A DNA stretch of 64,000 bases, taken from NCBI RefSeq assembly GCF_988243305.1, contig NZ_OZ547136.1; one strand, given 5' to 3'. Below, piece by piece: positions 7,688 through 63,188 of the stretch. Under the pieces are notes generated by a model that did not search any database, was not told where the DNA came from, and worked only from the letters and a program-made list of their open reading frames with translations. The position numbers were made by a program, and so were the translations under genes. Every line of letters begins with the position of its first letter. Position 1 is the stretch's first letter.

Positions 7688-9130
7688 ATGTCCAGAAGGC
7701 TTCGCAGAACTAAAATCGTTACCACGTTAGGCCCAGCAACAGATCGCGATAATAACCTTGAAAAAGTTATCGCGGCGGGTGCCAACGTTGTACGTATGAA
7801 CTTTTCTCACGGCTCGCCTGAAGATCACAAAATGCGCGCGGATAAAGTTCGTGAGATTGCCGCAAAACTGGGGCGTCATGTGGCTATTCTGGGTGACCTC
7901 CAGGGGCCCAAAATCCGTGTATCCACCTTTAAAGAAGGCAAAGTTTTCCTCAACATTGGTGATAAATTCCTGCTCGACGCCAACCTGGGTAAAGGTGAAG
8001 GCGACAAAGAAAAAGTCGGTATCGACTACAAAGGCCTGCCTGCTGACGTCGTGCCTGGTGACATCCTGCTGCTGGACGATGGTCGCGTTCAGTTAAAAGT
8101 ACTGGAAGTTCAGGGCATGAAAGTGTTCACCGAAGTGACCGTCGGTGGTCCCCTCTCCAACAATAAAGGTATCAACAAACTTGGCGGCGGTTTGTCGGCT
8201 GAAGCGCTGACCGAAAAAGACAAAGCAGACATTAAGACTGCAGCGTTAATTGGCGTAGATTACCTGGCTGTCTCCTTCCCACGCTGCGGCGAAGATCTGA
8301 ACTATGCCCGTCGCCTGGCACGCGATGCAGGATGTGATGCGAAAATTGTTGCCAAGGTTGAACGTGCGGAAGCCGTTTGCAGCCAGGATGCAATGGATGA
8401 CATCATCCTCGCCTCTGACGTGGTAATGGTTGCTCGCGGCGACCTCGGTGTGGAAATTGGCGATCCGGAACTGGTCGGCATTCAGAAAGCGTTGATCCGT
8501 CGTGCACGTCAGCTAAACCGCGCGGTAATCACTGCGACCCAGATGATGGAGTCAATGATTACTAACCCGATGCCGACGCGTGCAGAAGTCATGGACGTAG
8601 CAAACGCCGTTCTGGATGGTACTGACGCTGTGATGCTGTCTGCAGAAACTGCTGCTGGTCAGTATCCTTCAGAAACTGTTGCAGCCATGGCGCGCGTTTG
8701 CCTGGGTGCGGAAAAAATCCCGAGCATCAACGTTTCTAAACACCGTCTGGACGTTCAGTTCGACAATGTGGAAGAAGCTATTGCCATGTCAGCAATGTAC
8801 GCAGCTAACCACCTGAAAGGCGTTACGGCGATCATTACCATGACCGAATCGGGTCGTACCGCGCTGATGACCTCCCGTATCAGCTCTGGTCTGCCGATTT
8901 TCGCCATGTCACGCCATGAACGTACGCTGAACCTGACTGCTCTCTATCGCGGCGTTACGCCGGTGCACTTCGATAGCGCTAATGACGGCGTAGCAGCTGC
9001 CAGCGAAGCGGTTAATCTGCTGCGCGATAAAGGTTACTTGATGTCTGGTGACCTGGTGATTGTCACCCAGGGCGACGTGATGAGTACCGTGGGTTCTACT
9101 AATACCACGCGTATTTTAACGGTAGAGTAA
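7688..9130 (+). CDS. pykA: Pyruvate kinase II
   Basis: ORF 7547..9130 trimmed to the [17 protein letters not shown] start; pyruvate kinase motifs. Confidence 0.95.
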
Positions 9131-9137
9131 GTACGTT

Positions 9138-9172
9138 GCCGGATGCGGCGAAAACGCCTCATCCGGCCTACA
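9138..9172. repeat. REP element
   Basis: gccggatgcggcg...cctcatccggc palindromic unit after pykA. Confidence 0.5.
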
Positions 9173-9261
9173 GTTCAATGATAGTTCAACAGATTTCGAA
9201 TCTTCTGAAGCAAACTTGAACTTATCACAAGGCGGAAGCCTCTCCTCGCGAGAGGCTTTTT

Positions 9262-10233
9262 TTATTTGATGGGATAAAGATCTTTGCGCTTATACGGTTG
9301 GATTTCGCCCGGTTTGCGAGTTTTCAGCAATTTTAATATCCAGGTGTATTGTTCTGGTCGCGGACCAACAAAAATCTCGACTTCTTCATTCATCCGCCGC
9401 GCAATTGTATGATCATCCGCCTCTAACAGATCATCCATCGGTGGGCGCACCTGAATCGTCAGACGATGCGTCTTGCCATCATAAATCGGAAACAGCGGTA
9501 CAACGCGCGCACGACACACTTTCATCAAACGACCAATCGCGGGCAACGTCGCTTTATAGGTGGCAAAGAAATCAACAAATTCGCTGTGCTCTGGGCCATG
9601 ATCCTGATCGGGTAAATAATATCCCCAGTAGCCCTGACGTACCGACTGGATGAATGGTTTAATACCATCATTTCTCGCATGCAGACGACCGCCAAAACGA
9701 CGACGCACCGTGTTCCAGACATAATCAAAAACCGGGTTGCCCTGATTATGGAACATCGCTGCCATTTTCTGCCCTTGCGAGGCCATCAGCATGGCCGGGA
9801 TATCGACGGCCCAACCGTGCGGCACCAGAAAAATCACTTTCTCGTTATTACGCCGCATCTCTTCGATGATCTCCAGCCCTTGCCAGTCAACGCGCGGCTG
9901 AATTTTCTCCGGCCCGCGTATTGCCAACTCAGCCATCATTGCCATCGCTTGCGGCGCGGTGGCAAACATCTCATCAACAATCGCTTCGCGTTCAGCTTCA
10001 CTACGTTCTGGAAAGCAGAGCGATAAATTGATTAACGCACGACGGCGTGAGCTTTTTCCCAGGCGTCCGGCAAAACGTCCCAGCCGTGCCAGAATGGGGT
10101 CGCGAAACTTTGGCGGCGTTAAAGCAATACCCGCCATCGCTGCTACGCCCAGCCATGCTCCCCAGTAGCGCGGGTGGCGAAAGGATTTATCAAACTCAGG
10201 AATGTATTCGCTATTATTTTTTTTCGTTTCCAT
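9262..10233 (-). CDS. lpxM: Lipid A biosynthesis myristoyltransferase
   Basis: 323-aa ORF of the HtrB/MsbB acyltransferase family. Confidence 0.9.
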
Positions 10234-16851: not shown

Positions 16852-18060
16852 TCATAATTTCCCCAAAGCGTAACCATGTGTGAATAAATTTTGAGCTAGT
16901 AGGGTTGCAGCCACGAGTAAGTCTTCCCTTGTTATTGTGTAGCCAGAATGCCGCAAAACTTCCATGCCTAAGCGAACTGTTGAGAGTACGTTTCGATTTC
17001 TGACTGTGTTAGCCTGGAAGTGCTTGTCCCAACCTTGTTTCTGAGCATGAACGCCCGCAAGCCAACATGTTAGTTGAAGCATCAGGGCGATTAGCAGCAT
17101 GATATCAAAACGCTCTGAGCTGCTCGTTCGGCTATGGCGTAGGCCTAGTCCGTAGGCAGGACTTTTCAAGTCTCGGAAGGTTTCTTCAATCTGCATTCGC
17201 TTCGAATAGATATTAACAAGTTGTTTGGGTGTTCGAATTTCAACAGGTAAGTTAGTTGCTAGAACCCATGGCTCCTTTGCCGACGCTGAGTAGATTTTAG
17301 GTGACGGGTGGTGACAATGAGTCCGTGTCGAGCGCTGATTTTTTCGGCCTTTAGAGCGAGATTTATACAATAGAATTTGGCATGAGATTGGATTGCTTTT
17401 AGTCAGCCTCTTATAGCCTAAAGTCTTTGAGTGACTAGATGACATATCATGTAAGTTGCTGATAGGTTTCCAGTTTTCCGCTCCTAGGTCTGCATATTGT
17501 ACTTTTCCTCTTACTCGACTTAACCAGTACCAACCCAGCTTCTCAACGGATTTATACCATGGCACTTTAAAGCCAGCATCACTGACAATGAGCGGTGTGG
17601 TGTTACTCGGTAGAATGCTCGCAAGGTCGGCTAGAAATTGGTCATGAGCTTTCTTTGAACATTGCTCTGAAAGCGGGAACGCTTTCTCATAAAGAGTAAC
17701 AGAACGACCGTGTAGTGCGACTGAAGCTCGCAATACCATAAGTCGTTTTTGCTCACGAATATCAGACCAGTCAACAAGTACAATGGGCATCGTATTGCCC
17801 GAACAGATAAAGCTAGCATGCCAACGGTATACAGCGAGTCGCTCTTTGTGGAGGTGACGATTACCTAACAATCGGTCGATTCGTTTGATGTTATGTTTTG
17901 TTCTCGCTTTGGTTGGCAGGTTACGGCCAAGTTCGGTAAGAGTGAGAGTTTTACAGTCAAGTAATGCGTGGCAAGCCAACGTTAAGCTGTTGAGTCGTTT
18001 TAAGTGTAATTCGGGGCAGAATTGGTAAAGAGAGTCGTGTAAAATATCGAGTTCGCACAT
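16852..18060 (-). CDS. IS10 transposase
   Basis: 402-aa ORF (MCELDILHDSLYQFCPELHLKRLNSL...) matching remembered Tn10/IS10 transposase. Confidence 0.9.
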   Translation of the reverse strand: MCELDILHDSLYQFCPELHLKRLNSLTLACHALLDCKTLTLTELGRNLPTKARTKHNIKRIDRLLGNRHLHKERLAVYRWHASFICSGNTMPIVLVDWSDIREQKRLMVLRASVALHGRSVTLYEKAFPLSEQCSKKAHDQFLADLASILPSNTTPLIVSDAGFKVPWYKSVEKLGWYWLSRVRGKVQYADLGAENWKPISNLHDMSSSHSKTLGYKRLTKSNPISCQILLYKSRSKGRKNQRSTRTHCHHPSPKIYSASAKEPWVLATNLPVEIRTPKQLVNIYSKRMQIEETFRDLKSPAYGLGLRHSRTSSSERFDIMLLIALMLQLTCWLAGVHAQKQGWDKHFQANTVRNRNVLSTVRLGMEVLRHSGYTITREDLLVAATLLAQNLFTHGYALGKL

Positions 18061-18122
18061 CTTGTTGTCTGATTATTGATTTTTGGCGAAACCATTTGAT
18101 CATATGACAAGATGTGTATCTA
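18053..18122 (+). ncRNA. Probable IS10 RNA-OUT antisense RNA
   Basis: Placed from known IS10 architecture (antisense RNA overlapping the transposase start, running toward the outside end); not independently verified in sequence. Confidence 0.35.
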
Positions 18123-18234: not shown

Positions 18235-18756
18235 TTAACGCAGTCGCCCTCTCGCCAGGTTCAGCCGCGATTCGCTCATCTGCATCGCATTCTGACTGAC
18301 GTGACAATGGGTAATCGCGATAGCTAATGCATCGGCAGCATCCGCCTGTGGATTAGCGGGCAGTTTCAGCAAGGTGCGGACCATATGCTGCACCTGGCTT
18401 TTTTCAGCACTACCAATACCTACCACCGTTTGCTTTACCTGACGTGCCGCATATTCAAATACCGGCAATTCCTGATTCACCGCCGCCACAATCGCCACGC
18501 CGCGTGCCTGCCCCAGTTTCAGGGCTGAGTCAGCGTTCTTCGCCATAAAGACTTGTTCAATGGCGAAATAATCAGGCTGGAACTGGGTAATGATTTCCGT
18601 CACGCCCGCATAGATGAGCTTCAGACGAGACGGTAAATCATCCACTTTGGTGCGTATGCATCCGCTACCCAGGTAGGAGAGTTGCCTGCCTACCTGGCGG
18701 ATGACGCCATAGCCGGTCACGCGCGAACCCGGGTCAATACCGAGAATAATAGCCAT
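18235..18756 (-). CDS. ruvC: Holliday junction resolvase
   Basis: 173-aa ORF beginning [18 protein letters not shown]. Confidence 0.95.
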
Positions 18757-18790
18757 CACGCGTCTCCGTTTTGCTGTTTAGCAGGCCTCA

Positions 18791-21902: not shown

Positions 21903-22211
21903 GAGATATCCCTTAACTTAGCTGCCGGCGGATGCCCCCTGCTGCGCAGGTGACCAAGTCGCAGCGTTAGCTGTATGTCACAACTGAATGAAAAAAGGCG
22001 GCTATTATACTGGAAATTCTGCCGCACCGTAAGAGCCTGGCCCGCGCTGGAACACCTCGTTACCACTTTATATCGGGCCTGAAATCAGACTCTACGCCAG
22101 TTTGCTATAAAGGTGTTGCCCGAACTCATAAAAATTAACAAAATTTGTCGTTCCGCCATCGGCTAATCGCATTAAGGTGAGAGGCACTATTTTGTTTTGT
22201 CAGGAGTCATC

Positions 22212-22778
22212 ATGCTTGAACTTAATGCTAAAACCACTGCGCTGGTGGTGATTGATTTACAAGAAGGCATCTTACCTTTTGCCGGAGGTCCACATACTGC
22301 CGATGAGGTGGTTAATCGCGCCGGGAAGCTGGCGGCGAAATTTCGCGCGAGCGGTCAGCCCGTGTTTCTGGTGCGCGTTGGCTGGTCTGCCGATTATGCC
22401 GAAGCATTAAAACAGCTGGTTGATGTCCCCTCCCCCGCGAAAGTGTTACCCGAAAACTGGTGGCAACATCCTGCTGCATTAGGTGCAACCGACAGCGATA
22501 TCGAAATCATCAAACGTCAATGGGGTGCGTTTTACGGTACGGATCTGGAGTTGCAACTGCGCCGCCGGGGTATCGATACAATAGTATTATGTGGGATCTC
22601 GACCAATATCGGTGTTGAATCCACCGCCCGCAATGCCTGGGAACTCGGTTTTAATCTGGTGATTGCCGAAGACGCCTGCAGCGCCGCCAGCGCCGAGCAG
22701 CACAATAACAGCATCAACCATATCTACCCACGCATCGCCCGTGTGCGCAGTGTGGAAGAGATCCTCAACGCATTATGA
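22212..22778 (+). CDS. yecD: Isochorismatase-family hydrolase
   Basis: ORF 22197..22778 trimmed to the [17 protein letters not shown] start. Confidence 0.85.
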
Positions 22779-22870
22779 TTTACATCGGTCTGCCGCAATG
22801 GTCGCATCCTAAATGGGTGCGGTTGGGGATCACCAGCCTTGAAGAGTATGCCCGCCACTTTAACTGCGTG
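22775..22870 (+). pseudogene. yecE: 5' fragment of yecE truncated by prophage integration
   Basis: Encodes [32 protein letters not shown], then diverges into AT-rich phage DNA with a stop within a few codons. Confidence 0.7.
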
Positions 22871-22880
22871 ATACGGAATT
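22860..22880. other. Prophage/host junction (bacterial attachment site within yecE)
   Basis: Point where yecE homology ends; exact core not determinable from one junction. Confidence 0.5.
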
Positions 22881-22998
22881 TTTAAAAATCACTAAAGAAC
22901 GCCCAAGAGCATGTTTTTTATTTAGAAGAATCAAAGCGTTGTATTTCCATGTCATATAAAAATCGGCAAAGTTCATATGTAACAAAGTGTCCCAATCA

Positions 22999-23046
22999 TG
23001 CCCCAAAATGCCCCACAACAAATATTTTTGCCCCATGCATGCCCCA
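22999..23046. repeat. Four phased TGCCCCA repeats
   Basis: tgcccca at 22999, 23009, 23029 and 23040, spaced about one or two helical turns. Confidence 0.6.
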
Positions 23047-23067
23047 AAAAATCACTTTCCTTCACCC

Positions 23068-23117
23068 TTGACACTGTTTATCCATACAGTTAAAAATGAT
23101 ACTGTATACAAACACAG
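23068..23117 (+). promoter_or_regulatory. Sigma70-like promoter with two LexA boxes upstream of the dinI-like gene
   Basis: -35 TTGACA (23068-23073), 17-bp spacer, -10 taaaaat (23091-23097); CTGT-N8-ACAG boxes at 23074-23089 and 23102-23117. Confidence 0.6.
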
Positions 23118-23132
23118 TGTAGAGGGACTTTT

Positions 23133-23381
23133 ATGCGTATTGAAATCTGCATAGCCAAAGAAAAAATGACTAAAATGCCAACCGGTGCTGTGGATGCGTT
23201 AAAGGAAGAATTAACTCGGCGCATCAGTAAGCGTTATGACGATGTAGAAGTGATCGTAAAAGCCACCAGCAATGATGGGCTTTCTGTTACACGCACAGCA
23301 GATAAGGATTCTGCAAAAACATTTGTTCAGGAGACTCTGAAAGATACCTGGGAGTCTGCTGACGAGTGGTTTGTTCACTAA
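23133..23381 (+). CDS. DinI-family DNA damage-inducible protein
   Basis: 82-aa ORF, size and sequence character of DinI; SOS boxes upstream. Confidence 0.8.
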
Positions 23382-23448
23382 TAAACACGTAAAATCGGTA
23401 ACGGCTGGAAATCATTCAATACTCGCACTATCGAAAGTTCACCAGCCA

Positions 23449-23495
23449 ACCGCAGCACGTCCTGCATACGTCGTGTCTGCGGTTTTTCTTTTTCG
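23449..23495 (+). terminator. Intrinsic terminator after the dinI-like gene
   Basis: Hairpin ccgcagcacg...cgtgtctgcgg followed by tttttcttttt. Confidence 0.55.
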
Positions 23496-23496
23496 C

Positions 23497-23766
23497 TTAC
23501 ATTGTGTCTGGTTCTTCCGGCCACTCAATATCAGGTGCAGTTGATGTATCAACACGGTTCAGCAACACCCGATATTTATTCCATGCCTCCAGCAACGATC
23601 TTTCTTCCTCCGTTGCGATTTCCAGATCTACAGCATCCTGCAGTGGCGCAATATACTCACTGAATTCCTGGATGTAGAACTGTGTGGTGACGGTCTTCCA
23701 GCCATTCGGCTCCTGCTGTATCGAAGCATACCAGGCTATTTCAATATCGCTATGCTGCGGCAGCAT
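23497..23766 (-). pseudogene. Remnant tail fibre assembly (Tfa-like) gene
   Basis: 89-aa ORF whose last ~50 aa (...[45 protein letters not shown]) duplicate the C-terminus of the tfa at 24546..25130. Confidence 0.65.
23515..23665. repeat. Direct repeat of the tfa 3' end, copy 1
   Basis: About 90% identical over ~150 bp to 24568..24718. Confidence 0.7.
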
Positions 23767-23822
23767 TTAACCCCTTGTAATTCATCGCCATAATTGATTT
23801 AATTCACAAATAAAACTATAAC

Positions 23823-24491
23823 ATGGTGAAATCAATGAAAAAAAACACAGATGATGGGGCTAAAATTTACACACCACTTACCCTAAAGCTTTATGACTGG
23901 TGGGTTTTGGGAGTATCAAATCGGCTTGCATGGGGATGTCCTACAAAGGAACACCTTCTTCCACACTTTCTGGAACATTTAGGTAACAACCATCTGGATA
24001 TTGGTGTTGGAACTGGGTTTTATCTTACTCACGTACCTGAGAGTAGTCTGATATCTTTAATGGATTTGAACGAAGCTAGCCTGAACGCGGCATCTACAAG
24101 GGCTGGGGAATCAAAAATTAAACATAAAATTAGCCATGATGTTTTTGAACCTTATCCCGCGGCGTTACATGGTCAATTTGATTCCATTTCCATGTTTTAC
24201 CTTCTTCACTGCCTGCCTGGAAATATATCTACAAAAAGCTGTGTAATACGCAATGCGGCGCAGGCCTTAACTGACGATGGAACTCTATACGGAGCCACAA
24301 TTCTTGGCGATGGAGTTGTGCACAATAGCTTCGGTCAAAAACTGATGCGCATTTACAATCAGAAAGGCATCTTTTCAAACACAAAAGATTCCGAAGAAGG
24401 CTTAACACATATACTCTCAGAGCATTTCGAGAATGTTAAAACCAAGGTTCAAGGTACTGTAGTAATGTTTTCCGCTTCAGGGAAAAAATAG
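23823..24491 (+). CDS. Class I SAM-dependent methyltransferase-like protein (cargo gene)
   Basis: 222-aa ORF with Rossmann motif-I-like LDIGVGTGFY; opposite strand to the tail genes; substrate unknown. Confidence 0.55.
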   Translation: MVKSMKKNTDDGAKIYTPLTLKLYDWWVLGVSNRLAWGCPTKEHLLPHFLEHLGNNHLDIGVGTGFYLTHVPESSLISLMDLNEASLNAASTRAGESKIKHKISHDVFEPYPAALHGQFDSISMFYLLHCLPGNISTKSCVIRNAAQALTDDGTLYGATILGDGVVHNSFGQKLMRIYNQKGIFSNTKDSEEGLTHILSEHFENVKTKVQGTVVMFSASGKK

Positions 24492-24497
24492 CATCCA

Positions 24498-24529
24498 ACC
24501 GCAGCACGTTCTTGCTTAAGACGTGCTGC
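24498..24529. terminator. Hairpin between the convergent methyltransferase-like gene and tfa
   Basis: Perfect 10-bp stem ccgcagcacg/cgtgctgcgg; T run on the minus-strand side. Confidence 0.5.
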
Positions 24530-24545
24530 GGCATAATCCCAATGA

Positions 24546-25130
24546 TTACTCACTGACAGGGTTCGTAGGCCACTCAATATCAGGTGCAGTTGATGTATCA
24601 ACACGGTTCAGCAACACCCGATACTTCTTCCAGGCTTCCAGCAACGAGTTTTCTTCCTCCGTTGCGATTTCCAGATCTGCAGCATCCTGAAGCGGCGCAA
24701 TATGCTCACTGGCTACCTGCATCAGGTTGTTTTTTGTTTCTTCCGCCTCCCGGATCCGGAACAGTTTTTCTGCTTCCGTATCCTTCACCCAGGCTGTGCC
24801 GTTCCACTTCTGAAACTCCCCTTCCGGCGATAACCAGGTAACATTTTCCGGTAACGGACCGAGTTCAGAAATAAATAACGCGTCGCCGGAAGCCACGTCA
24901 TAAACCGTTTTACCCCGATGGTCTTCAAAGAGATGCCACGATGACTCATCACTGTTGAAAACAGCCACGAAGCCAGCAGGAATATCTGGTGGTGCAATAT
25001 CGGTACTGTTTGCTGGCAGACCTGTATGAGGCGGAATATATGCGTCACCTTCACCAATAAATTCATTAGTTCCGGCCAGCAGATTATAAATTTTTATGGT
25101 CCGTGGTTGTTCACTCATTCTGAATGCCAT
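24546..25130 (-). CDS. tfa: Tail fibre assembly protein
   Basis: 194-aa ORF matching remembered lambda Tfa ([34 protein letters not shown]). Confidence 0.9.
24568..24718. repeat. Direct repeat of the tfa 3' end, copy 2
   Basis: See copy 1. Confidence 0.7.
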
Positions 25131-34137: not shown

Positions 34138-34466
34138 CAGTTCACCACCTGTTCAAACTCTGCGCTGAACTCAACACGCAGCATACTGACCCGCGACGAC
34201 CATTTTGCGCAGGTCACCTTTATCTGCCGCCACTCATAAGGCGGCGTCCACAGAAAGGATTTCCAGCCCCCGTGCTCTTCCAGAAACGACTCCAGTACCG
34301 TGGCCTCCTCACGGGGGACAGAAAGCGTCACGCTGTACGTTTTCAGGTTGGCATTCAGCCCGGCAGGCGCTCGCTGGGAATAGCCATCACCAAAGCGCAC
34401 CTTTCTTACAGAAGGGGCCGAAGCCACATCCATACCGGGTTTCACTTTCCAGCGGAAGGTTTTCAT
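34137..34466 (-). CDS. M: Minor tail protein M
   Basis: 109-aa ORF between H and L. Confidence 0.9.
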   Translation of the reverse strand: MKTFRWKVKPGMDVASAPSVRKVRFGDGYSQRAPAGLNANLKTYSVTLSVPREEATVLESFLEEHGGWKSFLWTPPYEWRQIKVTCAKWSSRVSMLRVEFSAEFEQVVN

Positions 34467-37024
34467 CGTCCACCTCCGGAGAACAGGCCACCATCACGCA
34501 TCTGTGTCTGAATTTCATCACGGGCACCCTTGCGGGCCATGTCATACACCGCCTTCAGAGCAGCCGGACCTATCTGCCCGTTCGTGCCGTCGTTGTTAAT
34601 CACCACATGGTTATTCTGCTCAAACGTCCCGGACGCCTGCGACCGGCTGTCAGCCAGACTGCCCGGTGTACCGACATAACCACCGGTGGCATAGCCGCGC
34701 ATCAGCCGGTAGAGATTCCCCACGCCAATCCGGCTGGTTGCCTCCTTCGTGAAGACAAATTCACCACGGTGAACAATCCCCGCTGGCTCATATTTGCCGC
34801 CGGTTCCTGTGAATCCTCCGGTTGCAAAATGGAATTTCGCCGCAGCGGCCTGAATGGCTGTACCGCCTGACGCGGATGCGCCGCCACCAACAGCCCCGCC
34901 AATGGCGCTGCCGATACTCCCGACAATCCCCACCATTGCCTGCTTAAGCAGAATTTCTGTCATCATGGACAGCACGGAACGGGTGAAGCTGCGCCAGTTC
35001 TGCTCACTGCCGGTCAGCATCGCTGCCATATTCTGTGCAATACCATCAAAGGTCTGCGTGGCTGCACTTTTTACCTGCGACATACTGTCCGTGGCGCTCT
35101 CTTCCCACTCACTCCAGCCGGACTTCAGGCCTGCCATCCAGCTCCCGCGAAGCTGGTCTTCAGCCGCCCTGGTCTTTTTCTGCTCTGACATGACGTTATT
35201 CAGCGCCAGCGGATTATCGCCATACTGTTCCTTCAGGCGCTGTTCCGTGGCTTCCCGTTCTGCCTGCCGGTCAGTCAGCCCCCGGCTTTTCGCATCAATG
35301 GCGGCCCGTTTTGCCCGTTGCTGCTGTGCGAATTTATCCGCCTGCTGCGCCAGCGCGTTCAGGCGCTCCTGATACGTAACCTTGTCGCCAAGTGCAGCCA
35401 GCTGGCGTTTGTACTCCAGCGTCTCATCTTTATGCGCCAGCAGGGATTTCTCCTGTGCGGACAGCTGGCGACGTTGTGCCGCCTCCTCCAGTACCGCGAA
35501 CTGACTTTCTGCCTTCCACAAATCCCGGCGCTGCTGGCTGATTTTCTCATTCGCTCCGGCATGCTTCTCCAGCGTCCGGAGTTCTGCCTGAAGCGTCAGC
35601 AGGGCAGCATGAGCACTGTCTTCCTGACGATCGCCCGCAGACACCTTCACGCCGGACTGTTTCGGCTTTTTCAGCGTCGCTTCATAATCCTTTTTCGCCG
35701 CCGCCATCAGCGTGTTGTAATCTGCCTGCAGGATTTTCCCGTCTTTCAGGGCCTTGTTCAGTTCTTCCTGACGGGCGGTATATTTCTCCAGTGGCGTCCG
35801 CAGGCGTTCGTAAGCCTTCTGCGCCTCTTCGGTATATTTCAGCCGTGACGCTTCGGTATCGCTCTGCTGCTGCGCATTTTTGTCCTGTTGAGTCTGCTGC
35901 TCAGCCTTCTTTCGGGCGGCTTCAAGCGCAAGACGGGCCTTTTCACGATCATCCCAGTAACGCGCCCGCGCTTCATCGTTAACAAAATAATCATCCTTGC
36001 GCAGACTCCAGATGTCGTCCGCTTTCTTAAACGCAGCCTCTGCCTTAATCAGCATCTCCTGAGCGGTATCAGGACGACCAGTATCCAGCACCGCATCCCA
36101 CATGGATTTGAATGCTCGTGCTGTCCTGTCTGCCCAGGTCTCCAGCGTGCCCATGTTCTCTTTCAGGCGACGGGTCTGGTCATCAAACCCTTTCGTTGCT
36201 GCCTCGTTCGCCGCCTGCAATGCCCCGGCACCATCGCCGGAACGCTGCAACTGAGCAACATACGCAATCTGCTCCGCCGTCACGTTATGGAACTGGCGCG
36301 CCATCGCTGTCAGCCCCGACGTCGGGTCTGTGGTCAGCTTCCCGAAGGCTTCAGCGACCTTGTCCACCTCCACGCCGGATGCAGAGGAGAAACGCGCCAC
36401 ACTCTGGCTGATGGATGCAATCTGAGCCTCACCGCTTACTCCCGCCTTAACCAGTGCGCTGAGTGACTCGCTGGTCTGGTTAAACGTCAGCCCTGCCGCC
36501 TGCCCGGCTCTGGACAGGACCAGCATACGATCTGCCGTCAGACCCGACTGATTGCCGGAAAGGACCAGCGTTTTGTTGAAATCGGACAGGGTTGAGTTGC
36601 CCTGATACCAGGCATACGCCAGCGCACTGGTCGCCACCGCCAGCGAGGTGGCCCCGACCATCGGCAGGGTGATCGCACCGGCAAGCCCCCTGAACATGGG
36701 GATCATCCCGCCGAAGGAGTCCTTCACCTGACCACCCTGTTGCAGCAGGATCAGCCACGGACTTTGCCCGCCTGCAAGCTGCGTGGCCACGTCGGTGAAC
36801 TGCGCAGGCAGCATACGCATGGCGGCTTTATACTGCCCGACGGAAATCCCCGCTTTCTGTGCAGCCAGTGCCTGTCGGCTCAGCGACTGTTCAACGACTG
36901 CCGCTGTTTTTTTCGCATCACTTTCCGTACCGGAAAAATGACGCCTGACTCTGGCCATCTGCTCGTCAAATCTGGCCGCATCCAGACTTAAATCAACGAC
37001 CAGATCGCCTACCGGTTCAGCCAT
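34463..37024 (-). CDS. H: Tail tape measure protein H
   Basis: 853-aa ORF, same length as lambda H; coiled-coil-rich centre. Confidence 0.95.
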   Translation of the reverse strand: MAEPVGDLVVDLSLDAARFDEQMARVRRHFSGTESDAKKTAAVVEQSLSRQALAAQKAGISVGQYKAAMRMLPAQFTDVATQLAGGQSPWLILLQQGGQVKDSFGGMIPMFRGLAGAITLPMVGATSLAVATSALAYAWYQGNSTLSDFNKTLVLSGNQSGLTADRMLVLSRAGQAAGLTFNQTSESLSALVKAGVSGEAQIASISQSVARFSSASGVEVDKVAEAFGKLTTDPTSGLTAMARQFHNVTAEQIAYVAQLQRSGDGAGALQAANEAATKGFDDQTRRLKENMGTLETWADRTARAFKSMWDAVLDTGRPDTAQEMLIKAEAAFKKADDIWSLRKDDYFVNDEARARYWDDREKARLALEAARKKAEQQTQQDKNAQQQSDTEASRLKYTEEAQKAYERLRTPLEKYTARQEELNKALKDGKILQADYNTLMAAAKKDYEATLKKPKQSGVKVSAGDRQEDSAHAALLTLQAELRTLEKHAGANEKISQQRRDLWKAESQFAVLEEAAQRRQLSAQEKSLLAHKDETLEYKRQLAALGDKVTYQERLNALAQQADKFAQQQRAKRAAIDAKSRGLTDRQAEREATEQRLKEQYGDNPLALNNVMSEQKKTRAAEDQLRGSWMAGLKSGWSEWEESATDSMSQVKSAATQTFDGIAQNMAAMLTGSEQNWRSFTRSVLSMMTEILLKQAMVGIVGSIGSAIGGAVGGGASASGGTAIQAAAAKFHFATGGFTGTGGKYEPAGIVHRGEFVFTKEATSRIGVGNLYRLMRGYATGGYVGTPGSLADSRSQASGTFEQNNHVVINNDGTNGQIGPAALKAVYDMARKGARDEIQTQMRDGGLFSGGGR

Positions 37025-37451
37025 ACCGGACTCCTCCTGCGATCCCTTCTGATACTGTCATCAGCATTACGTCATCCTCCGTCATGTCCGCCACATCCGG
37101 GGAAGTAGGGATAACTTCATTCCCGTCCGGGCCAAAGCGGGCACCTCCGCCAAGCCCTGCCGCTTTCTGCATCAGCACATCATCTTCAGGCTCTTCGTCA
37201 GCCTCGCGCCGGTTCAGCAAACTGAAATCCAGCGGATGCATATCCGGATCGCTGAAAAACAGGCTGAGCACGGTGTACGTCAGCCCGGAAAAGTGCATAT
37301 CCAGCAGAACATCATGAAAATAATGGGTACTGTAAAAGCGGTGCCAGTCGGCATACTCCGTGGATGACATCCCGGCAAGCATGGCACGCCAGTCGGGTCG
37401 CCCCATCTCACGCGCCAGTTTCAGGGCAAAACTCAGCTCACCGTCGAACAC
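37017..37451 (-). CDS. T: T-frame portion of the G-T tail assembly chaperone (made by -1 frameshift from G)
   Basis: -1 frame ORF overlapping the 3' end of G and continuing to the start of H. Confidence 0.8.
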   Translation of the reverse strand: MFDGELSFALKLAREMGRPDWRAMLAGMSSTEYADWHRFYSTHYFHDVLLDMHFSGLTYTVLSLFFSDPDMHPLDFSLLNRREADEEPEDDVLMQKAAGLGGGARFGPDGNEVIPTSPDVADMTEDDVMLMTVSEGIAGGVRYG

Positions 37452-37855
37452 TTTCCCGCAGAAACAGGCTCTGCAGGCCCGGCGTCCTCTGCCTGTTCAG
37501 GGGCATCATTCACCACAAACTCATACATACCGGACAGCCGGTACACCACGTTTTCAGCATGCGAAATTGCCTCTGTGGGCCAGGTGGTAAGCACTTCCTG
37601 CTCAATCTGTTTAACGGCTTCATTCATGGAAGGCTGCTTTGTCTTCTGCGGATGGTTATGCCACAGGGACATAGCCACCACAAAAGCACCGGTTCTGATG
37701 GCGTCTTCCACAGTAAACTTCCGGTTGCTGTCTGACTCCGCCTGTTCTGCCTGCCGTTTCATCAGGGCGAGATGCTCAATACGCTGCAGGGCTGACAGTT
37801 CAGAAAGCGTGACGGTCACGCCGTTATGTTCAAATGATTCGGTTTTCAGGAACAT
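37433..37855 (-). CDS. G: Tail assembly chaperone G
   Basis: 140-aa ORF; slippery site close to its 3' end. Confidence 0.9.
   Translation of the reverse strand: MFLKTESFEHNGVTVTLSELSALQRIEHLALMKRQAEQAESDSNRKFTVEDAIRTGAFVVAMSLWHNHPQKTKQPSMNEAVKQIEQEVLTTWPTEAISHAENVVYRLSGMYEFVVNDAPEQAEDAGPAEPVSAGKCSTVS
37451..37457 (-). promoter_or_regulatory. Programmed -1 ribosomal frameshift site
   Basis: GGGAAAG on the minus strand, identical to the lambda G/T slip sequence; the -1 frame continues into the T ORF. Confidence 0.8.
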
Positions 37856-37870
37856 CGCTGACTCTCCGGA

Positions 37871-38611
37871 TTAACTGTCGGTGACAGTGATTTCTGCAAC
37901 CGCAGCAAGTTCACCATTACCGGATACAACCGGAATGTTGACCTTACCTGCAGCAACGCCTTTCACGGTGATGGTCATACCACTGACCGACACGGTGGCT
38001 TTTGTTTTATCCGCTGACACCGCACGGAAGCTCTTGTCAGTTGCGCCCTCCGGCTGGAATGCCACGGTCAGCGTGGTGCTCTGCCCTTTCACCACCGAGG
38101 AGCTGGCAGGCGTCACGGTCATACCGGTTGCCGCCGTCACCGTACTGCGATCTTCTGCCATTGACGGACGGCCCACATTGGTGATCTTCACTGTACGGGT
38201 GATCACTTCCTTCGCCGTCACCGCCTTACCGATACTGCTGACCCAGCCACGGAACACATCGACCGTGCCGTTCGGGAAGCGGATTTTATAGGCACGGGTA
38301 TCACCTTCATTAAACCACACCAGCAGCGCCTGCTGCCCCTGCTCTCCGGGCATCCACGCCAGCGTGAAGCTGGTATCTCCGGCGGATTTCTGACCCTGCC
38401 CGGTCGCGGTCCAGTCCGCATCTTCATCATCGAGATAACTGTCGTCATAGGACTCAGCGGTCAGTTCGCCGGGCGTCAGGTCTTTAACTTTAGCCAGACG
38501 CGACCAGTCAACGTCTGAAAGCGGGTTCGCATAAGGGTCGCCGCTCCCGTTATAAACCCACAGGGTGGTTCCGGCACCTTTCACCGGTATTGCTGGATTT
38601 GGTACAGGCAT
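37871..38611 (-). CDS. V: Major tail protein V (with C-terminal Ig-like domain)
   Basis: ORF 37871..38641 trimmed to the [20 protein letters not shown] start. Confidence 0.9.
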
Positions 38612-38618
38612 ATCGTCC

Positions 38619-39014
38619 TCACATTTCATAGGTAATGACATAAGTCAGATCGGCAGAACTCCACAGGCCCGCATCATCGTCGCGCCGGTAGTCATAGCCG
38701 CTGGCCACCATACTGGTGATCAAATCTGACAGTGCCGGGACATCGCTCATCACCGGATAAATCCGGGACTCCATCCACGAATCCAGCTCTGAATCCGGCA
38801 CCTGAGCAGGCAGGAAAACTTCAATATGCAGCTCCGCCTGCCAGGTATCACTGTCCAGCTCTTCGCCCGTGTATTCAGCGCCGGTGAGATAAACGGCAAT
38901 TGCCGGAAAATCCGCCTCATCAAAAACAGCGGGGCGACCATCAAAAAGCGTCGCCCCGGTGTCATGCTTCTCCAGTGCATCCAGTACGGCTGCACGGAGT
39001 TCAGTATGTTTCAT
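38619..39014 (-). CDS. U: Tail terminator protein U
   Basis: 131-aa ORF beginning [21 protein letters not shown]. Confidence 0.9.
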
Positions 39015-51849: not shown

Positions 51850-53703
51850 TTATGATGATGCCGGTGCATTTATCTCCAGCACCAGACTTTCTATCTCAAC
51901 GCCATACGCTGCATTTTTGGTAATATCCGTCAGCGTCAGCGCATTCAGCCCCAGTGTCAGACTGTCTTTTATGACCTGGAATGCCGGGCCAGCCACTCCA
52001 TTCAGTTTCGGAGTAACCGTGGCACTGCCGGCGGTGAACACCAGTTCCAGCGTCTGCCAGTCATTACTGTAATTCCCGAACTCGCCCAACTTTGTGTTTC
52101 CTGCTTTCTTGTGATGCATCAGATTCAGTTTGCCGTCTGTGGTCTGGGTGAAGAACGACATCAGGAACGGGTTACCAGTCCCGGCCATCGCCACGACGTC
52201 AGGTAACGCTACATCGGTATACAGATAAATTCCCAGGCCGAACTGGTTGTTGGTCAGTGCGCCTGACAGTCGAAACTTACAGCTCAGTCTGCCACCCCGT
52301 GTCAGCAGGGAGACTGCGTCATCCACCGGATGCATCAGGGACCAGGTTTTATTGCTCTGCTTGGCGATCTTAAATACACCACCCGACAACTGAATTCCGC
52401 CGTCCTTAATGGTCCAGCCCTGCGCAGCAGCCTCTCCGGCTGTCGGCAACAGGGAGATTGTGCGTACGGATGCATCTTCAGACGGCCCCGATGGCGTGTT
52501 GCCGCCGGGCGAGGGTTTGATTTCCGGTGCCTTACCACTGATGAAAGCTGAGGTGCGCCCGGCTGCGTTCAGAATAGCGGTTGCCATACGATCCGGAATA
52601 ATGCTCCTGCGCGCCCATGAACTGAAATGTGTCGGGCGGTTTGATGATACCTGGTTTCCATTCGTTCTCGATGCCGCACCGTAATATCCTGATGCCGGAA
52701 TATCCGGATCTTCTGCCGGTGCGTTAGTGGCGGTATTGACGCCGTTACCGTCTGTCATGAAGGGCACAAAATAAACGCCCTCACTCTCCCTGTTTTTATA
52801 CCCGCCGTACACGGTGTCGTACTGGGTAGCGTATGTATTTTTCCAGTAATACGTCGTGTCACCACAAATCCACGGCACATTTACAGCACTACCACCATGA
52901 CACTGCGCGTTAAACACAGTGAGGTCAGCACGAAACTGCTTCAGCATGGCTGTAAACAGCGCAGGTTGCTGTGCGTAGGTGGCGGCGTTCATGTCAAACT
53001 CTCCCTGCATCCAGCACACCGCCAGCAACACATTTTTCGGGTTCTTCTGTAATGCAGCTTTAGTGCGCGCAATCAGGTCCTGATATAACGGTTTACCCAC
53101 ACCCCAGCGTGCCGAATCCTGGCTGGCCCCCGCGTCCGCACTGAATGTCCCCTCCGCGCCCTTGGTGAATGCCGAACCACCACGACAGCATGGTACCAGC
53201 AGGATCCCCGCGTTATTCGGGATATACGGGAGCAGTTTTTTGGCAATATGTAAGCCCTGGCCGACACAGCCGTACTGCCCTTTGCTCAGGTCTGCCTTCG
53301 GATGATTCAGCGTACTCATATCCTGCACATCATGCAGACAGTGGTCAGCCGGGATGATGTCGTTATACGTACAACTCTCTCCACCCGGAGTTACCGTGCT
53401 GCGGCGCGCCAGCTGTTTAATGCGCGGATCCGGAGCATCGTAAGAATCCGGTAACGGAAGCCCTTCACCGTAGGCCATGCCGTTGGACTGTCCGGCAAGC
53501 ACAACCACGTAGAACCAGTCCGGCTCAGATGAAGGGCCGACCTGTGGATCTCCTTCAATAGCCACCGCCTGCATCAGTGTGTACGGCGTAATGGCAACCG
53601 GTCCGCCATATGGCTGCCAGCCCTCTTTCAGTTTGTGTGTCAGCTTTTCCGCAAGGTCTGACGGCGACGCCGCCCTGACAACATCATAGTGTTTAAATGC
53701 CAT
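51850..53703 (-). CDS. Prophage sialate O-acetylesterase (NanS-p / YjhS-like)
   Basis: 617-aa ORF in the position this gene holds in Stx-type phages, between the tRNA cluster and S. Confidence 0.8.
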   Translation of the reverse strand: MAFKHYDVVRAASPSDLAEKLTHKLKEGWQPYGGPVAITPYTLMQAVAIEGDPQVGPSSEPDWFYVVVLAGQSNGMAYGEGLPLPDSYDAPDPRIKQLARRSTVTPGGESCTYNDIIPADHCLHDVQDMSTLNHPKADLSKGQYGCVGQGLHIAKKLLPYIPNNAGILLVPCCRGGSAFTKGAEGTFSADAGASQDSARWGVGKPLYQDLIARTKAALQKNPKNVLLAVCWMQGEFDMNAATYAQQPALFTAMLKQFRADLTVFNAQCHGGSAVNVPWICGDTTYYWKNTYATQYDTVYGGYKNRESEGVYFVPFMTDGNGVNTATNAPAEDPDIPASGYYGAASRTNGNQVSSNRPTHFSSWARRSIIPDRMATAILNAAGRTSAFISGKAPEIKPSPGGNTPSGPSEDASVRTISLLPTAGEAAAQGWTIKDGGIQLSGGVFKIAKQSNKTWSLMHPVDDAVSLLTRGGRLSCKFRLSGALTNNQFGLGIYLYTDVALPDVVAMAGTGNPFLMSFFTQTTDGKLNLMHHKKAGNTKLGEFGNYSNDWQTLELVFTAGSATVTPKLNGVAGPAFQVIKDSLTLGLNALTLTDITKNAAYGVEIESLVLEINAPASS

Positions 53704-54192
53704 GAATCCTCCCGGCCGGGATAATATTGTGAGTAAAATGAGGAGCGGGCTGAAGTCCGGAAGTTACAGGACAATGGCAGAAGAGAGACAATAGCCCGCA
53801 ATACGAAAAAGGCCGCGCTATTGCGCAGAGTGATTACTGTCAGATATTATTCGCCAGCTGAAATATTACTTCACGTTTTGTTGTTTATTCCTTGCCGCCC
53901 GCGTCTCCCTGCGCGGGATTTTTTTGTCCATAAGAAAGCCCCTCCGGAGAGGGGCTGGAGAGTGGCGCTATGTGCCATTGCATGGTGCCGGGTGCCTCCC
54001 GGTGAATTCAGTACCAGCACCTGAATCCGCGATTATCCCATATACCTACTCGCTGATTGCCCCTCCGCACAGGGGGATTCACCATGCCAGTTTCTTTTAA
54101 CAAACTCCCCGCAAAACAGACAACTGTCAACCGTCTGAATTGTGAGACATTTAAAAAAAAGGCCCGCAAAAGCGAGCCAGGGAAAATAAGTG

Positions 54193-54269
54193 TGGCGCGT
54201 TGTACTGGATTCGAACCAGTGACCGATTGCTTAGAAGGCAATTGCTCTGTCCGGCTGAGCTAACAACGC
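54193..54269 (-). tRNA. argO: tRNA-Arg (anticodon UCU), argO-like
   Basis: Hand-folded cloverleaf; anticodon loop CTTCTAA; T-arm GGTTCGAATCC; 3' CCA encoded. Confidence 0.8.
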
Positions 54270-54282
54270 AGGGTACAGATAA

Positions 54283-54359
54283 TGGACCGCCATCGAGGAC
54301 TCGAACCCCGCGCAACCAGCTTCGAAGGCTGGCGCTCTATCCTGATGAGCTAATGGCGG
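54283..54359 (-). tRNA. argN: tRNA-Arg (anticodon UCG), argN-like
   Basis: Hand-folded; anticodon loop CTTCGAA; T-arm GGTTCGAGTCC; 3' CCA encoded. Confidence 0.75.
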
Positions 54360-54366
54360 TATGTGA

Positions 54367-54438
54367 TGGTGGCCCTTGCTGGATTTGAACCAGCGACCTG
54401 GCGATTATGAGTCGCTCTCACCACTGAGCTAAAGGGCC
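54367..54438 (-). tRNA. ileZ: tRNA with CAU anticodon (Ile2/Met type), ileZ-like
   Basis: Hand-folded; anticodon loop CTCATAA; T-arm GGTTCAAATCC; short D-loop; 3' CCA encoded. Confidence 0.7.
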
Positions 54439-62780: not shown

Positions 62781-63188
62781 GATGGCAGCCTCCGTTGACT
62801 GTGGAAAACTTCCACCACCGGAGCTGCGAAACTCACTGGTGGCAGACTGAACAGGGTTCGCAGTACCGGCGTCAACGGAGACCGGCGAGCCTTTCGGCTC
62901 CCCTGCCCAGCCCACCATAATTCTGGCGTGCGTGAGCGCGGACGATAAAAAAGACGCTGGCGCGTCATATATCGCCGTTGACAATTCCGGGCTGCGACCC
63001 CCGGCACCCGCTTTATAAGGTGCAGAGACAGTGTAACGTCCCGAAATTGCAGAATCAATATTTGGTCTTGAAATGATCATATAGCTGCTGATATCTTTAG
63101 AACTGTTCTTGGATGTTTCGGAGCCGTTTTATGCGAAACAGCTCCCCGTTATTGATGTTGAGTGAGCCGGGTTACTCCCGGCTTTTTT

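What the first reader, a model, noticed from the sequence alone, without database searches (positions are those of the whole stretch)
37433..37460. Conserved G/T -1 frameshift site
The lambda slip heptamer GGGAAAG is present near the end of G, and the -1 frame continues directly into the T ORF, which supports calling G and G-T as a frameshifted pair rather than two independent genes.
Basis: partly seen in the sequence, partly recalled or inferred. Interest (0 to 1): 0.15.

Follow-up and report, generated by a model that had tools for sequence, protein, structure and literature searches.

The report
Lambda G/G-T tail chaperone frameshift site

Summary
GGGAAAG lies on the minus strand at 37457..37451, in phase G GGA AAG, five codons before the stop of a 140-aa G ORF (37855..37433). 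From the heptamer's last base the -1 frame stays open for 144 codons, to 37017. That predicts a 279-aa G-T fusion with the junction ...PVSAGK|VFDGELSF....

The region is 97.4% identical to lambda G/T, and the 37 nt from the heptamer onward are identical to lambda. G matches Pfam Phage_TAC_2 and T matches Phage_tail_T. The pair sits between the tail tube gene V and the tape measure gene H, inside an intact lambda-type head and tail module.

The heptamer alone occurs at chance frequency (9 copies against 7.7 expected). Its context is what makes it unique: of 47 in-phase slippery heptamers in the window, only this one opens a long -1 ORF.

In 12 annotated phages and 240 IMG/VR loci, with G identity down to about 31% in the phages, an in-phase A-rich slip site always lies 0-5 codons before the G stop. 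T has no conserved start codon of its own.

The mechanism is the known one: about 4% tandem tRNA-Gly/tRNA-Lys slippage, giving roughly 30 gpG to 1 gpGT tail assembly chaperones.

A possible downstream RNA structure was tested. It is at best specific to some clades and remains unproven.

Verdict: already known, low interest.

The parts
37871..38611 (-). Major tail tube gene V, the upstream neighbour of G. The mechanical ORF extends to 38641, but the lambda-equivalent ATG gives 246 aa.
   Evidence: Pfam Phage_TTP_12 2.9e-70 plus Big_2. Lambda V is annotated at 8955-9695, which is 741 nt, immediately upstream of G.
37433..37855 (-). Gene G, the zero-frame product gpG, a 140-aa tail assembly chaperone. 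The end coordinate includes the stop TGA at 37435..37433.
   Evidence: ORF list. Pfam PF06894 Phage_TAC_2 4.9e-59. 96% amino-acid identity to lambda gpG.
37451..37457 (-). Slippery heptamer G GGA AAG, the -1 programmed ribosomal frameshift site, 5 codons before the G stop.
   Evidence: Same sequence and position as lambda. The position is conserved in 12 phages and 240 viral contigs.
37017..37451 (-). T-frame segment: 144 codons in the -1 frame relative to G, plus the stop. It is translated only as the C-terminal part of gpGT. The GTG at 37451..37449 is the first codon read after the slip, not an initiation codon.
   Evidence: frame continuity. Pfam PF06223 Phage_tail_T 4.3e-14. No conserved start codon or Shine-Dalgarno core.
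37017..37855 (-). Predicted G-T fusion CDS, join(37855..37451, 37451..37017) on the minus strand. It encodes a 279-aa gpGT with junction ...AEPVSAGK|VFDGELSFALKLAREMGRPDW...
   Evidence: The length and junction match the lambda fusion built in the same way. The phi80 and LLS records annotate the equivalent joined CDS.
34463..37024 (-). Tape measure gene H (853 aa), the downstream neighbour. Its ATG overlaps the end of T by 8 nt, as in lambda.
   Evidence: Pfam TMP_2 3.8e-69 plus Tape_meas_lam_C 3.7e-21. Lambda layout.

Best explanation
This is the lambda-type G/G-T programmed -1 ribosomal frameshift site of a lambda-like prophage.

Most ribosomes translating G read ...GGA AAG TGT TCG ACG GTG AGC and stop, making the 140-aa chaperone gpG. 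In lambda a few percent (about 4%) slip back one base on G GGA AAG. The P-site tRNA-Gly re-pairs from GGA to GGG, and the A-site tRNA-Lys (anticodon mnm5s2UUU) re-pairs from AAG to AAA. Those ribosomes continue in the T frame and make the 279-aa gpGT.

Both proteins bind the tape measure protein gpH through their shared G part. The T part of gpGT recruits the tail tube protein gpV. The roughly 30:1 gpG:gpGT ratio set by the slip rate is needed for correct tail assembly, and neither protein ends up in the virion.

Shown here: the sequence, its phase, frame continuity, homology, synteny, conservation of the site, and the lack of a T start codon. Taken from the lambda literature by near-identity: the slip rate, the tRNAs involved, the protein interactions, and actual expression in this prophage.
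For: - Heptamer in phase, 5 codons before the G stop, with the -1 frame open for 144 codons.
- 97.4% nucleotide identity to lambda G/T over 839 nt. The heptamer and the 30 nt after it are identical to lambda.
- Pfam hits: G is Phage_TAC_2 and T is Phage_tail_T, flanked by V (tail tube) and H (tape measure).
- The whole lambda-type morphogenesis module is intact: terminase, portal, capsid E, FII, Z, U, V, G, T, H, M, L, I, J, Lom, Stf, Tfa.
- It is the only one of 47 in-phase slippery heptamers in the window with a long -1 extension.
- The site position is conserved while G diverges to 31-47% amino-acid identity. GGGAAAG, AAAAAAG or GGAAAAG occur 1-5 codons before the stop in 12 phages.
- All 240 IMG/VR loci have an in-phase NNNAAAN site 0-5 codons before the stop.
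- The N15, phi80 and LLS records annotate the site explicitly as a -1 frameshift.
- T has no conserved start codon and the window has no Shine-Dalgarno core.
- Literature: PMC5009743 (30:1 ratio; gpG/gpGT bind gpH and the T domain binds gpV; G_GGA_AAG is highly shift-prone in E. coli), PMC3296357 (about 96% zero frame; tRNA-Lys U34 thiolation tunes the rate) and PMC7618472.
Against: There is no direct evidence of expression or of the fusion protein in this particular prophage. The window ends inside the prophage's early region, so its completeness and inducibility are unknown.

RefSeq/PGAP and many GenBank records still annotate G and T as two separate CDSs. This is an annotation convention, not evidence for independent translation.
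Confidence: 0.97

Rival explanations
1. T is an ordinary, independently initiated gene that starts at the GTG at 37451..37449. The heptamer upstream of it is incidental.
For: The mechanical ORF list starts T at GTG. J02459, RefSeq/PGAP and many phage records annotate a separate 144-aa T CDS.
Against: - No AGGA, GGAG or GAGG Shine-Dalgarno core in the 37 nt upstream.
- The codon at that position is a start codon in only 33 of 239 relatives. The others have GTC, GCC, ATA, GCG and similar codons.
- No relative has a start codon further upstream in the T frame, and the first possible start lies 5-23 codons into the conserved T domain in most relatives.
- In lambda, T is expressed as part of the frameshift fusion gpGT.
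Confidence: 0.02
2. The fusion is made by transcriptional slippage: RNA polymerase adds or drops a base in the G3 or A3 run, rather than the ribosome slipping.
For: Some relatives carry AAAAAAG, a 6-A run. Transcriptional slippage is used for similar length-variant products in other systems (PMC5009743, PMC4256274, listed).
Against: The runs here are only 3 G and 3 A. From established knowledge, not tested here, productive RNA polymerase slippage in E. coli needs homopolymer runs of roughly 7 or more. In lambda the rate responds to tRNA-Lys U34 modification, which points to a ribosomal event (PMC3296357).
Confidence: 0.01
3. The site is real but is a relic. The prophage is cryptic or defective, so the frameshift is never used in this genome.
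For: The window ends before the integrase/immunity end of the prophage, so its completeness cannot be judged. Lambda-type V-G-T-H blocks occur in 4107 of 5426 complete E. coli genomes, with a median of 2 places per genome that has any. Some of these presumably lie in defective prophages, which is my inference rather than a tool result.
Against: All head and tail ORFs examined are full length with strong family matches. G, T, the heptamer and the frame relationship are all intact.
Confidence: 0.15

Closest known systems
Bacteriophage lambda genes G and T (gpG/gpGT), J02459 9711-10549; Levin, Hendrix & Casjens 1993
   Same: 97.4% nucleotide identity over 839 nt. The heptamer G GGA AAG, its phase, its distance to the G stop (5 codons), the G length (140 aa), the fusion length (279 aa) and the junction peptide are all identical. 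The V-G-T-H synteny is the same, and T and H overlap by 8 nt in both.
   Different: There are a few amino-acid substitutions: G is 96% and the T part 98% identical. One synonymous C-to-T change lies 18 nt upstream of the heptamer. This copy is a chromosomal prophage in a non-K-12 E. coli background, with an Stx-phage-like late region.
Conserved tail assembly chaperone frameshift of long-tailed dsDNA phages (Xu, Hendrix & Duda 2004), e.g. N15 genes 14/15 and phi80 G/G-T
   Same: Two overlapping ORFs lie between the major tail gene and the tape measure gene. The second is in the -1 frame, with a slip site at the end of the first.
   Different: N15, phi80, LLS, mEp043, HK225, the Klebsiella phage and cdtI use G GAA AAG, where only the A-site tRNA-Lys re-pairs perfectly. 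In some of them the site is 1 codon before the stop instead of 5. Their T parts are shorter, 113-117 aa against 144 aa.
E. coli dnaX gamma/tau -1 frameshift (A AAA AAG)
   Same: A bacterial -1 slip on an X XXA AAG heptamer decoded by the single E. coli tRNA-Lys. It produces two products with a shared N-terminus.
   Different: From established knowledge, dnaX uses an upstream Shine-Dalgarno-like stimulator and a downstream stem-loop, and shifts at about 50%. Here no upstream Shine-Dalgarno core was found. A downstream structure is unproven. The lambda rate is about 4%.

Membership tests
Lambda-type tail assembly chaperone pair G/G-T with programmed -1 frameshift | Two overlapping ORFs located between the major tail (tube) gene and the tape measure gene | tested here: met
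   V (Phage_TTP_12) at 37871-38611, G at 37433-37855, T at 37017-37451 and H (TMP_2, Tape_meas_lam_C) at 34463-37024, all on the minus strand.
Lambda-type tail assembly chaperone pair G/G-T with programmed -1 frameshift | The downstream ORF is in the -1 frame relative to the upstream ORF and is open across the overlap | tested here: met
   The T frame is open from 17 codons upstream of the heptamer to 37017. The fusion is 279 aa.
Lambda-type tail assembly chaperone pair G/G-T with programmed -1 frameshift | A slippery heptamer in phase X XXY YYZ inside the overlap, near the 3' end of G | tested here: met
   G GGA AAG at 37457..37451, codon phase 2, 5 codons before the stop.
Lambda-type tail assembly chaperone pair G/G-T with programmed -1 frameshift | Sequence homology of both parts to the gpG and gpT families | tested here: met
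   PF06894 at 4.9e-59 and PF06223 at 4.3e-14, both above the curated cut-offs. 96% and 98% amino-acid identity to lambda.
Lambda-type tail assembly chaperone pair G/G-T with programmed -1 frameshift | The slip site and frame relationship are conserved in diverged relatives | tested here: met
   12 of 12 annotated phages, with G identity down to about 31%, and 240 of 240 IMG/VR loci.
Lambda-type tail assembly chaperone pair G/G-T with programmed -1 frameshift | The downstream ORF lacks its own translation start | tested here: met
   No Shine-Dalgarno core. A start codon occurs at the T 5' end in only 33 of 239 relatives, and none has one upstream.
Lambda-type tail assembly chaperone pair G/G-T with programmed -1 frameshift | The fusion protein is actually produced at a low fixed ratio (about 4%, roughly 30:1), is required for tail assembly and is absent from virions | not testable with these tools
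   Known for lambda only, from the literature (PMC5009743, PMC3296357). Inferred here from near-identity.
-1 PRF sites with cis-acting stimulators (dnaX type) | An upstream Shine-Dalgarno-like stimulator | tested here: not met
   No AGGA, GGAG or GAGG in the 30 nt upstream of the heptamer.
-1 PRF sites with cis-acting stimulators (dnaX type) | A conserved downstream hairpin or pseudoknot 5-9 nt 3' of the heptamer | tested here: inconclusive
   - The MFE structure is a three-way junction starting 7 nt 3' of the heptamer, at -38.7 kcal/mol. Its z-score is -1.45 against dinucleotide shuffles and -2.31 against synonymous-codon permutation.
- There is some covariation in 11 phages.
- There is no consensus structure across 26 diverse representatives.
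- On that broader set the model pairs only 77% of cells, and the robust covariation measures are non-significant.

The most novel reading that the evidence does not exclude
In the lambda, N15 and phi80 clades, though not across the whole family, the roughly 90 nt immediately 3' of the slip site may fold into a selected RNA structure that tunes the G:GT ratio. The candidate is an outer helix starting 7-8 nt after the heptamer, enclosing a UGGCGCG/CGYGCCA hairpin.

The evidence is an excess of folding stability over synonymously recoded controls that is specific to this segment. Mean z is -1.28 here against about -0.46 in two control segments. It is -1.73 in the GGAAAAG clade, whose heptamer is intrinsically weaker, and -2.31 for this window.

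Against it: there is no family-wide consensus, the sequences are not phylogenetically independent, and the segment encodes the most conserved T-domain motif.
Probability: 0.15. Interest if true: 0.3.

Novelty: already known. Interest (0 to 1): 0.07.

Why it matters
The practical value is for annotation. The correct gene model here is G plus a ribosomal-slippage G-T CDS, join(37855..37451, 37451..37017) on the minus strand. An independent T gene is wrong, yet RefSeq/PGAP and many phage records still annotate it that way, sometimes with arbitrary internal starts.

Biologically, the site sets the gpG:gpGT ratio needed for tail assembly. That ratio is sensitive to host tRNA-Lys modification (PMC3296357). 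A 2026 preprint reports that the shared G core is sensed by an Avs17 immune receptor (PMC12803255). None of this is new for this locus.

Tried and rejected
1. Heptamer enrichment. GGGAAAG occurs 9 times in the window against 7.7 expected, so its frequency alone carries no signal. I replaced this with the context test.

2. Downstream stimulatory structure.
- The single-sequence folds were not significant against dinucleotide shuffles: z -1.45 for the 3' region and +0.33 for a segment centred on the site.
- An 11-phage alignment gave an attractive two-helix model with some compensatory changes.
- After adding 240 IMG/VR loci and taking 26 representatives below 90% identity, RNAalifold found no consensus.
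- On that set the model pairs only 77% of cells, and the robust covariation measures were non-significant at 131/500 and 90/500.
- A synonymous-permutation test shows a modest excess of stability specific to the segment.
- I therefore do not claim this structure and keep it only as the novel case.

3. An upstream Shine-Dalgarno-like stimulator or a T start: none found.

4. Solved structures: no PDB chain matches the G-T fusion by sequence at E <= 0.01.

5. Rfam: no family hit in or near G/T at gathering thresholds.

6. Xu, Hendrix & Duda 2013 (PMC3762263) is not held in the library, and I made no attempt to open Levin et al. 1993. Statements about sequence requirements beyond the heptamer therefore rest on reviews and on my own recollection. 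I recall that Levin et al. reported some influence of 3' sequence without a defined structure, but I could not verify this.

7. The first related-loci scan returned only close relatives, at 69% identity or more. I re-ran it with phi80 and then cdtI as the lead sequence to reach other clades.

Full report
**Observation**

The quoted interval 37433-37460 lies on the minus strand of a tail-gene block. Its reverse complement reads GCG GGA AAG TGT TCG ACG GTG AGC TGA. GGGAAAG occupies 37457..37451. The 140-aa ORF at 37855..37433 ends with ...PVSAGKCSTVS*.

The first G of the heptamer is the third base of a codon, which gives the canonical X XXY YYZ phase (G GGA AAG), five codons before the stop. 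Re-reading the last G in the -1 frame gives GGG AAA GTG TTC GAC GGT GAG CTG.... That frame stays open for 144 codons, to a stop at 37019..37017. The predicted product is a 279-aa fusion with the junction ...AEPVSAGK|VFDGELSFALKLAREMGRPDW....

The heptamer alone is no more frequent than chance: 9 copies against 7.73 expected. Its context is unique, however. Of 47 in-phase slippery heptamers inside ORFs of at least 100 aa anywhere in the window, this one extends 138 codons beyond the zero-frame stop. The runner-up extends 20.

**Identity**

The 839-nt G-T region is 97.4% identical to lambda J02459 9711-10549, where G (140 aa), T (144 aa) and H (853 aa) are annotated. It is 98.5% identical to phage ev207. 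The heptamer and the 30 nt downstream of it are identical to lambda, and one synonymous change lies 18 nt upstream.

Pfam places the genes as follows:
- G is in PF06894 (lambda tail assembly chaperone G, 4.9e-59).
- The T segment is in PF06223 (minor tail protein T, 4.3e-14).
- The upstream neighbour is the tail tube family (V) and the downstream neighbour is a lambda-type tape measure protein (H). U lies further upstream.

The rest of the lambda morphogenesis module is present and full length: terminase A, portal B, capsid E, FII, Z, M, L, I, J, Lom, side tail fibre and Tfa.

The left 22 kb of the window is E. coli chromosome, including purT, edd, zwf, pykA, mepM, ruvC and aspS, at 99.5% identity to sequenced strains. 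So this is a lambda-like prophage in E. coli. Equivalent V-G-T-H blocks occur in 4107 of 5426 complete E. coli genomes.

**Conservation**

I reconstructed the G stop, the frame relationship and the slip site in twelve annotated phages whose G proteins range from 96% to about 31% identity to the window's.
- Lambda, HK630 and PhiR12_1 have GGGAAAG.
- VT1-Sakai has AAAAAAG.
- N15, phi80, LLS, mEp043 and HK225 have GGAAAAG.
- In all nine of these the site is in phase, 5 codons before the G stop.
- Klebsiella phage Kp4865-4, cdtI and phi458 have GGAAAAG 1 codon before the stop.
- In every case the -1 frame continues for 109-152 codons.
- The N15, phi80 and LLS records annotate the site explicitly as a -1 frameshift.

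Three scans of IMG/VR added 240 loci, and every one has an in-phase NNNAAAN heptamer 0-5 codons before the G stop:

| Heptamer | Codons before G stop | Loci |
|---|---|---|
| GGAAAAG | 1 | 98 |
| GGGAAAG | 5 | 80 |
| GGAAAAG | 5 | 45 |
| GGCAAAA | 0 | 10 |
| AGAAAAG | 0 or 5 | 4 |
| AAAAAAG | 5 | 2 |
| GGAAAAA | 0 | 1 |

My search criterion for this tally was permissive. Even so, 226 of the 240 sites are GGGAAAG, GGAAAAG or AAAAAAG, the types seen in the annotated phages.

**T is not an independent gene**

The mechanical T ORF starts at GTG 37451..37449, which is simply the first codon read after the slip.
- No Shine-Dalgarno core precedes it.
- Only 33 of 239 relatives have a start codon at that position. 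The others have GTC, GCC, ATA, GCG and similar codons.
- None has a start codon upstream in that frame.
- In most relatives the first possible start lies 5-23 codons into the conserved T domain.

Several database records annotate truncated T genes from arbitrary internal ATGs. RefSeq/PGAP annotates G and T as separate CDSs. These are annotation artefacts.

**Mechanism**

This part is taken from the lambda literature and applied by near-identity.
- Low-level -1 frameshifting links gpG and gpGT at a molar ratio of about 30:1, which is crucial for tail assembly.
- Both bind the tape measure protein gpH, and the T domain binds the tail tube protein gpV. Neither is in the virion (PMC5009743).
- About 96% of ribosomes stay in frame. 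tRNA-Lys (mnm5s2UUU) decodes both AAG and AAA, and hypomodification of its U34 raises slippage and lowers phage yield (PMC3296357; PMC7618472).
- G_GGA_AAG is among the most shift-prone heptamers in E. coli (PMC5009743).

Shown here are all the sequence prerequisites. The slip rate and actual expression in this prophage are inferred.

**Is there a stimulatory element?**

No upstream Shine-Dalgarno-like sequence was found.

Downstream, the MFE fold of the 101 nt after the heptamer is a three-way junction starting 7 nt 3' of the site, at -38.7 kcal/mol. Its z-score against dinucleotide shuffles is only -1.45.

An 11-phage alignment supported an outer helix (8-nt spacer) enclosing a UGGCGCG/CGYGCCA hairpin, with 94% of cells paired and four pairs carrying double changes. 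That structure was derived from the same alignment, however. The independent events are few, and the hairpin lies in the codons for the most conserved T motif, LAREMGRPDWRAML.

With 26 representatives below 90% identity drawn from all clades, RNAalifold finds no consensus. The model pairs only 77% of cells, several pairs are broken in more than half of the sequences, and the robust covariation measures are non-significant.

A test that controls for coding permutes synonymous codons while keeping the peptide and codon composition. It shows a modest excess of stability specific to this segment:
- Mean z is -1.28 for the 90 nt after the slip site, against -0.45 and -0.47 for two control segments further into T.
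- The window's own sequence gives z -2.31.
- The GGAAAAG clade averages -1.73.

I regard a clade-restricted stimulatory structure as possible (about 15%) but unproven.

**Other checks**

No Rfam family hits the G/T region. No solved structure matches the fusion by sequence. A 2026 preprint reports that an Avs17 immune sensor binds the N-terminal TAC core shared by gpG and gpGT (PMC12803255). This is context, not a finding about this locus.

**Verdict**

This is the textbook lambda G/G-T programmed -1 frameshift in a lambda-like E. coli prophage. It is already known, and its practical value is limited to getting the gene model right: G plus a slippage-joined G-T. Interest is low.

Noticed in passing
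window 16852-18122: There is an IS10-type insertion sequence next to ruvC (18235-18759). It consists of a 402-aa DDE transposase ORF on the minus strand (PF01609) with an Rfam RNA-OUT antisense RNA hit at 18053-18122 on the plus strand (99.5 bits).
   Followed up: partly
window 51850-54438 (minus strand): The late region has an Stx-phage-like layout. Three tRNAs sit at 54193-54438: anticodon CAT (called Met by ARAGORN), Arg-TCG and Arg-TCT. They are followed by an Rfam STnc100 sRNA hit at 53926-54116. Next comes a 617-aa DUF1737/SASA sialate O-acetylesterase-type ORF at 51850-53703. Only about 220 bp separate the sRNA from the esterase ORF, so there is no room for stx genes there.
   Followed up: partly
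window 62835-63023 (minus strand): Rfam hits to C4 antisense RNA (78.8 bits) and the isrK Hfq-binding RNA (58.7 bits) lie side by side in the prophage early/regulatory region. This resembles a P1/P7-type antisense immunity element.
   Followed up: no
window 24546-25130 (minus strand): An Rfam 'IS009' RNA family hit (224 bits, full length, 24589-24787) lies entirely inside the tail fibre assembly gene tfa (Caudo_TAP, 3.7e-44). This suggests that the Rfam family is built from, or overlaps, coding sequence.
   Followed up: no
window 22197-25130: The tail-fibre end of the prophage abuts host genes downstream of aspS: an isochorismatase-family gene at 22197-22775 and a 222-aa methyltransferase-domain ORF at 23823-24488. 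This places the attachment junction at roughly 24.5 kb, in the aspS-yecD region, which is also used by some Stx phages (one phage hit is named '..._yecE'). The exact att site was not mapped.
   Followed up: no
L003-L013 and L014-L253 (relatives): The slip heptamer type tracks clade. The 'perfect' G GGA AAG is found only 5 codons before the stop. The weaker G GAA AAG, where only the A-site tRNA-Lys re-pairs, lies 5 codons or only 1 codon before the stop. G GCA AAA, A GAA AAG and G GAA AAA sites lie directly against the stop codon. The closer stop codon might compensate for weaker heptamers, but this was not tested.
   Followed up: partly
L001, L005, L006, L008, L009, L010, L012, L013 (database records): Public annotations of T are inconsistent. 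It appears as a separate full-length CDS from GTG (lambda J02459, RefSeq/PGAP). It appears truncated from internal ATGs (VT1-Sakai, PhiR12_1, mEp043, cdtI, phi458, HK225). Only a few records (phi80, LLS) give a proper joined G-T CDS.
   Followed up: yes
window 38611-38641 (minus strand): The mechanical V ORF starts 10 codons upstream of the lambda V start ([16 protein letters not shown]...) and overlaps the end of U. The lambda-equivalent ATG at 38611 is the likely true start. J02459's label 'V (tail component;256)' does not match its own 741-nt (246-aa) coordinates.
   Followed up: partly
L043 (IMGVR_UViG_2874956758_000002): One lambda-like relative has an in-frame deletion in T just after the GRPDW motif (…GRPDW|HRFYSTHYF…). 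It removes the RAMLAGMSSTEYADW segment but keeps the slip site and frame.
   Followed up: no
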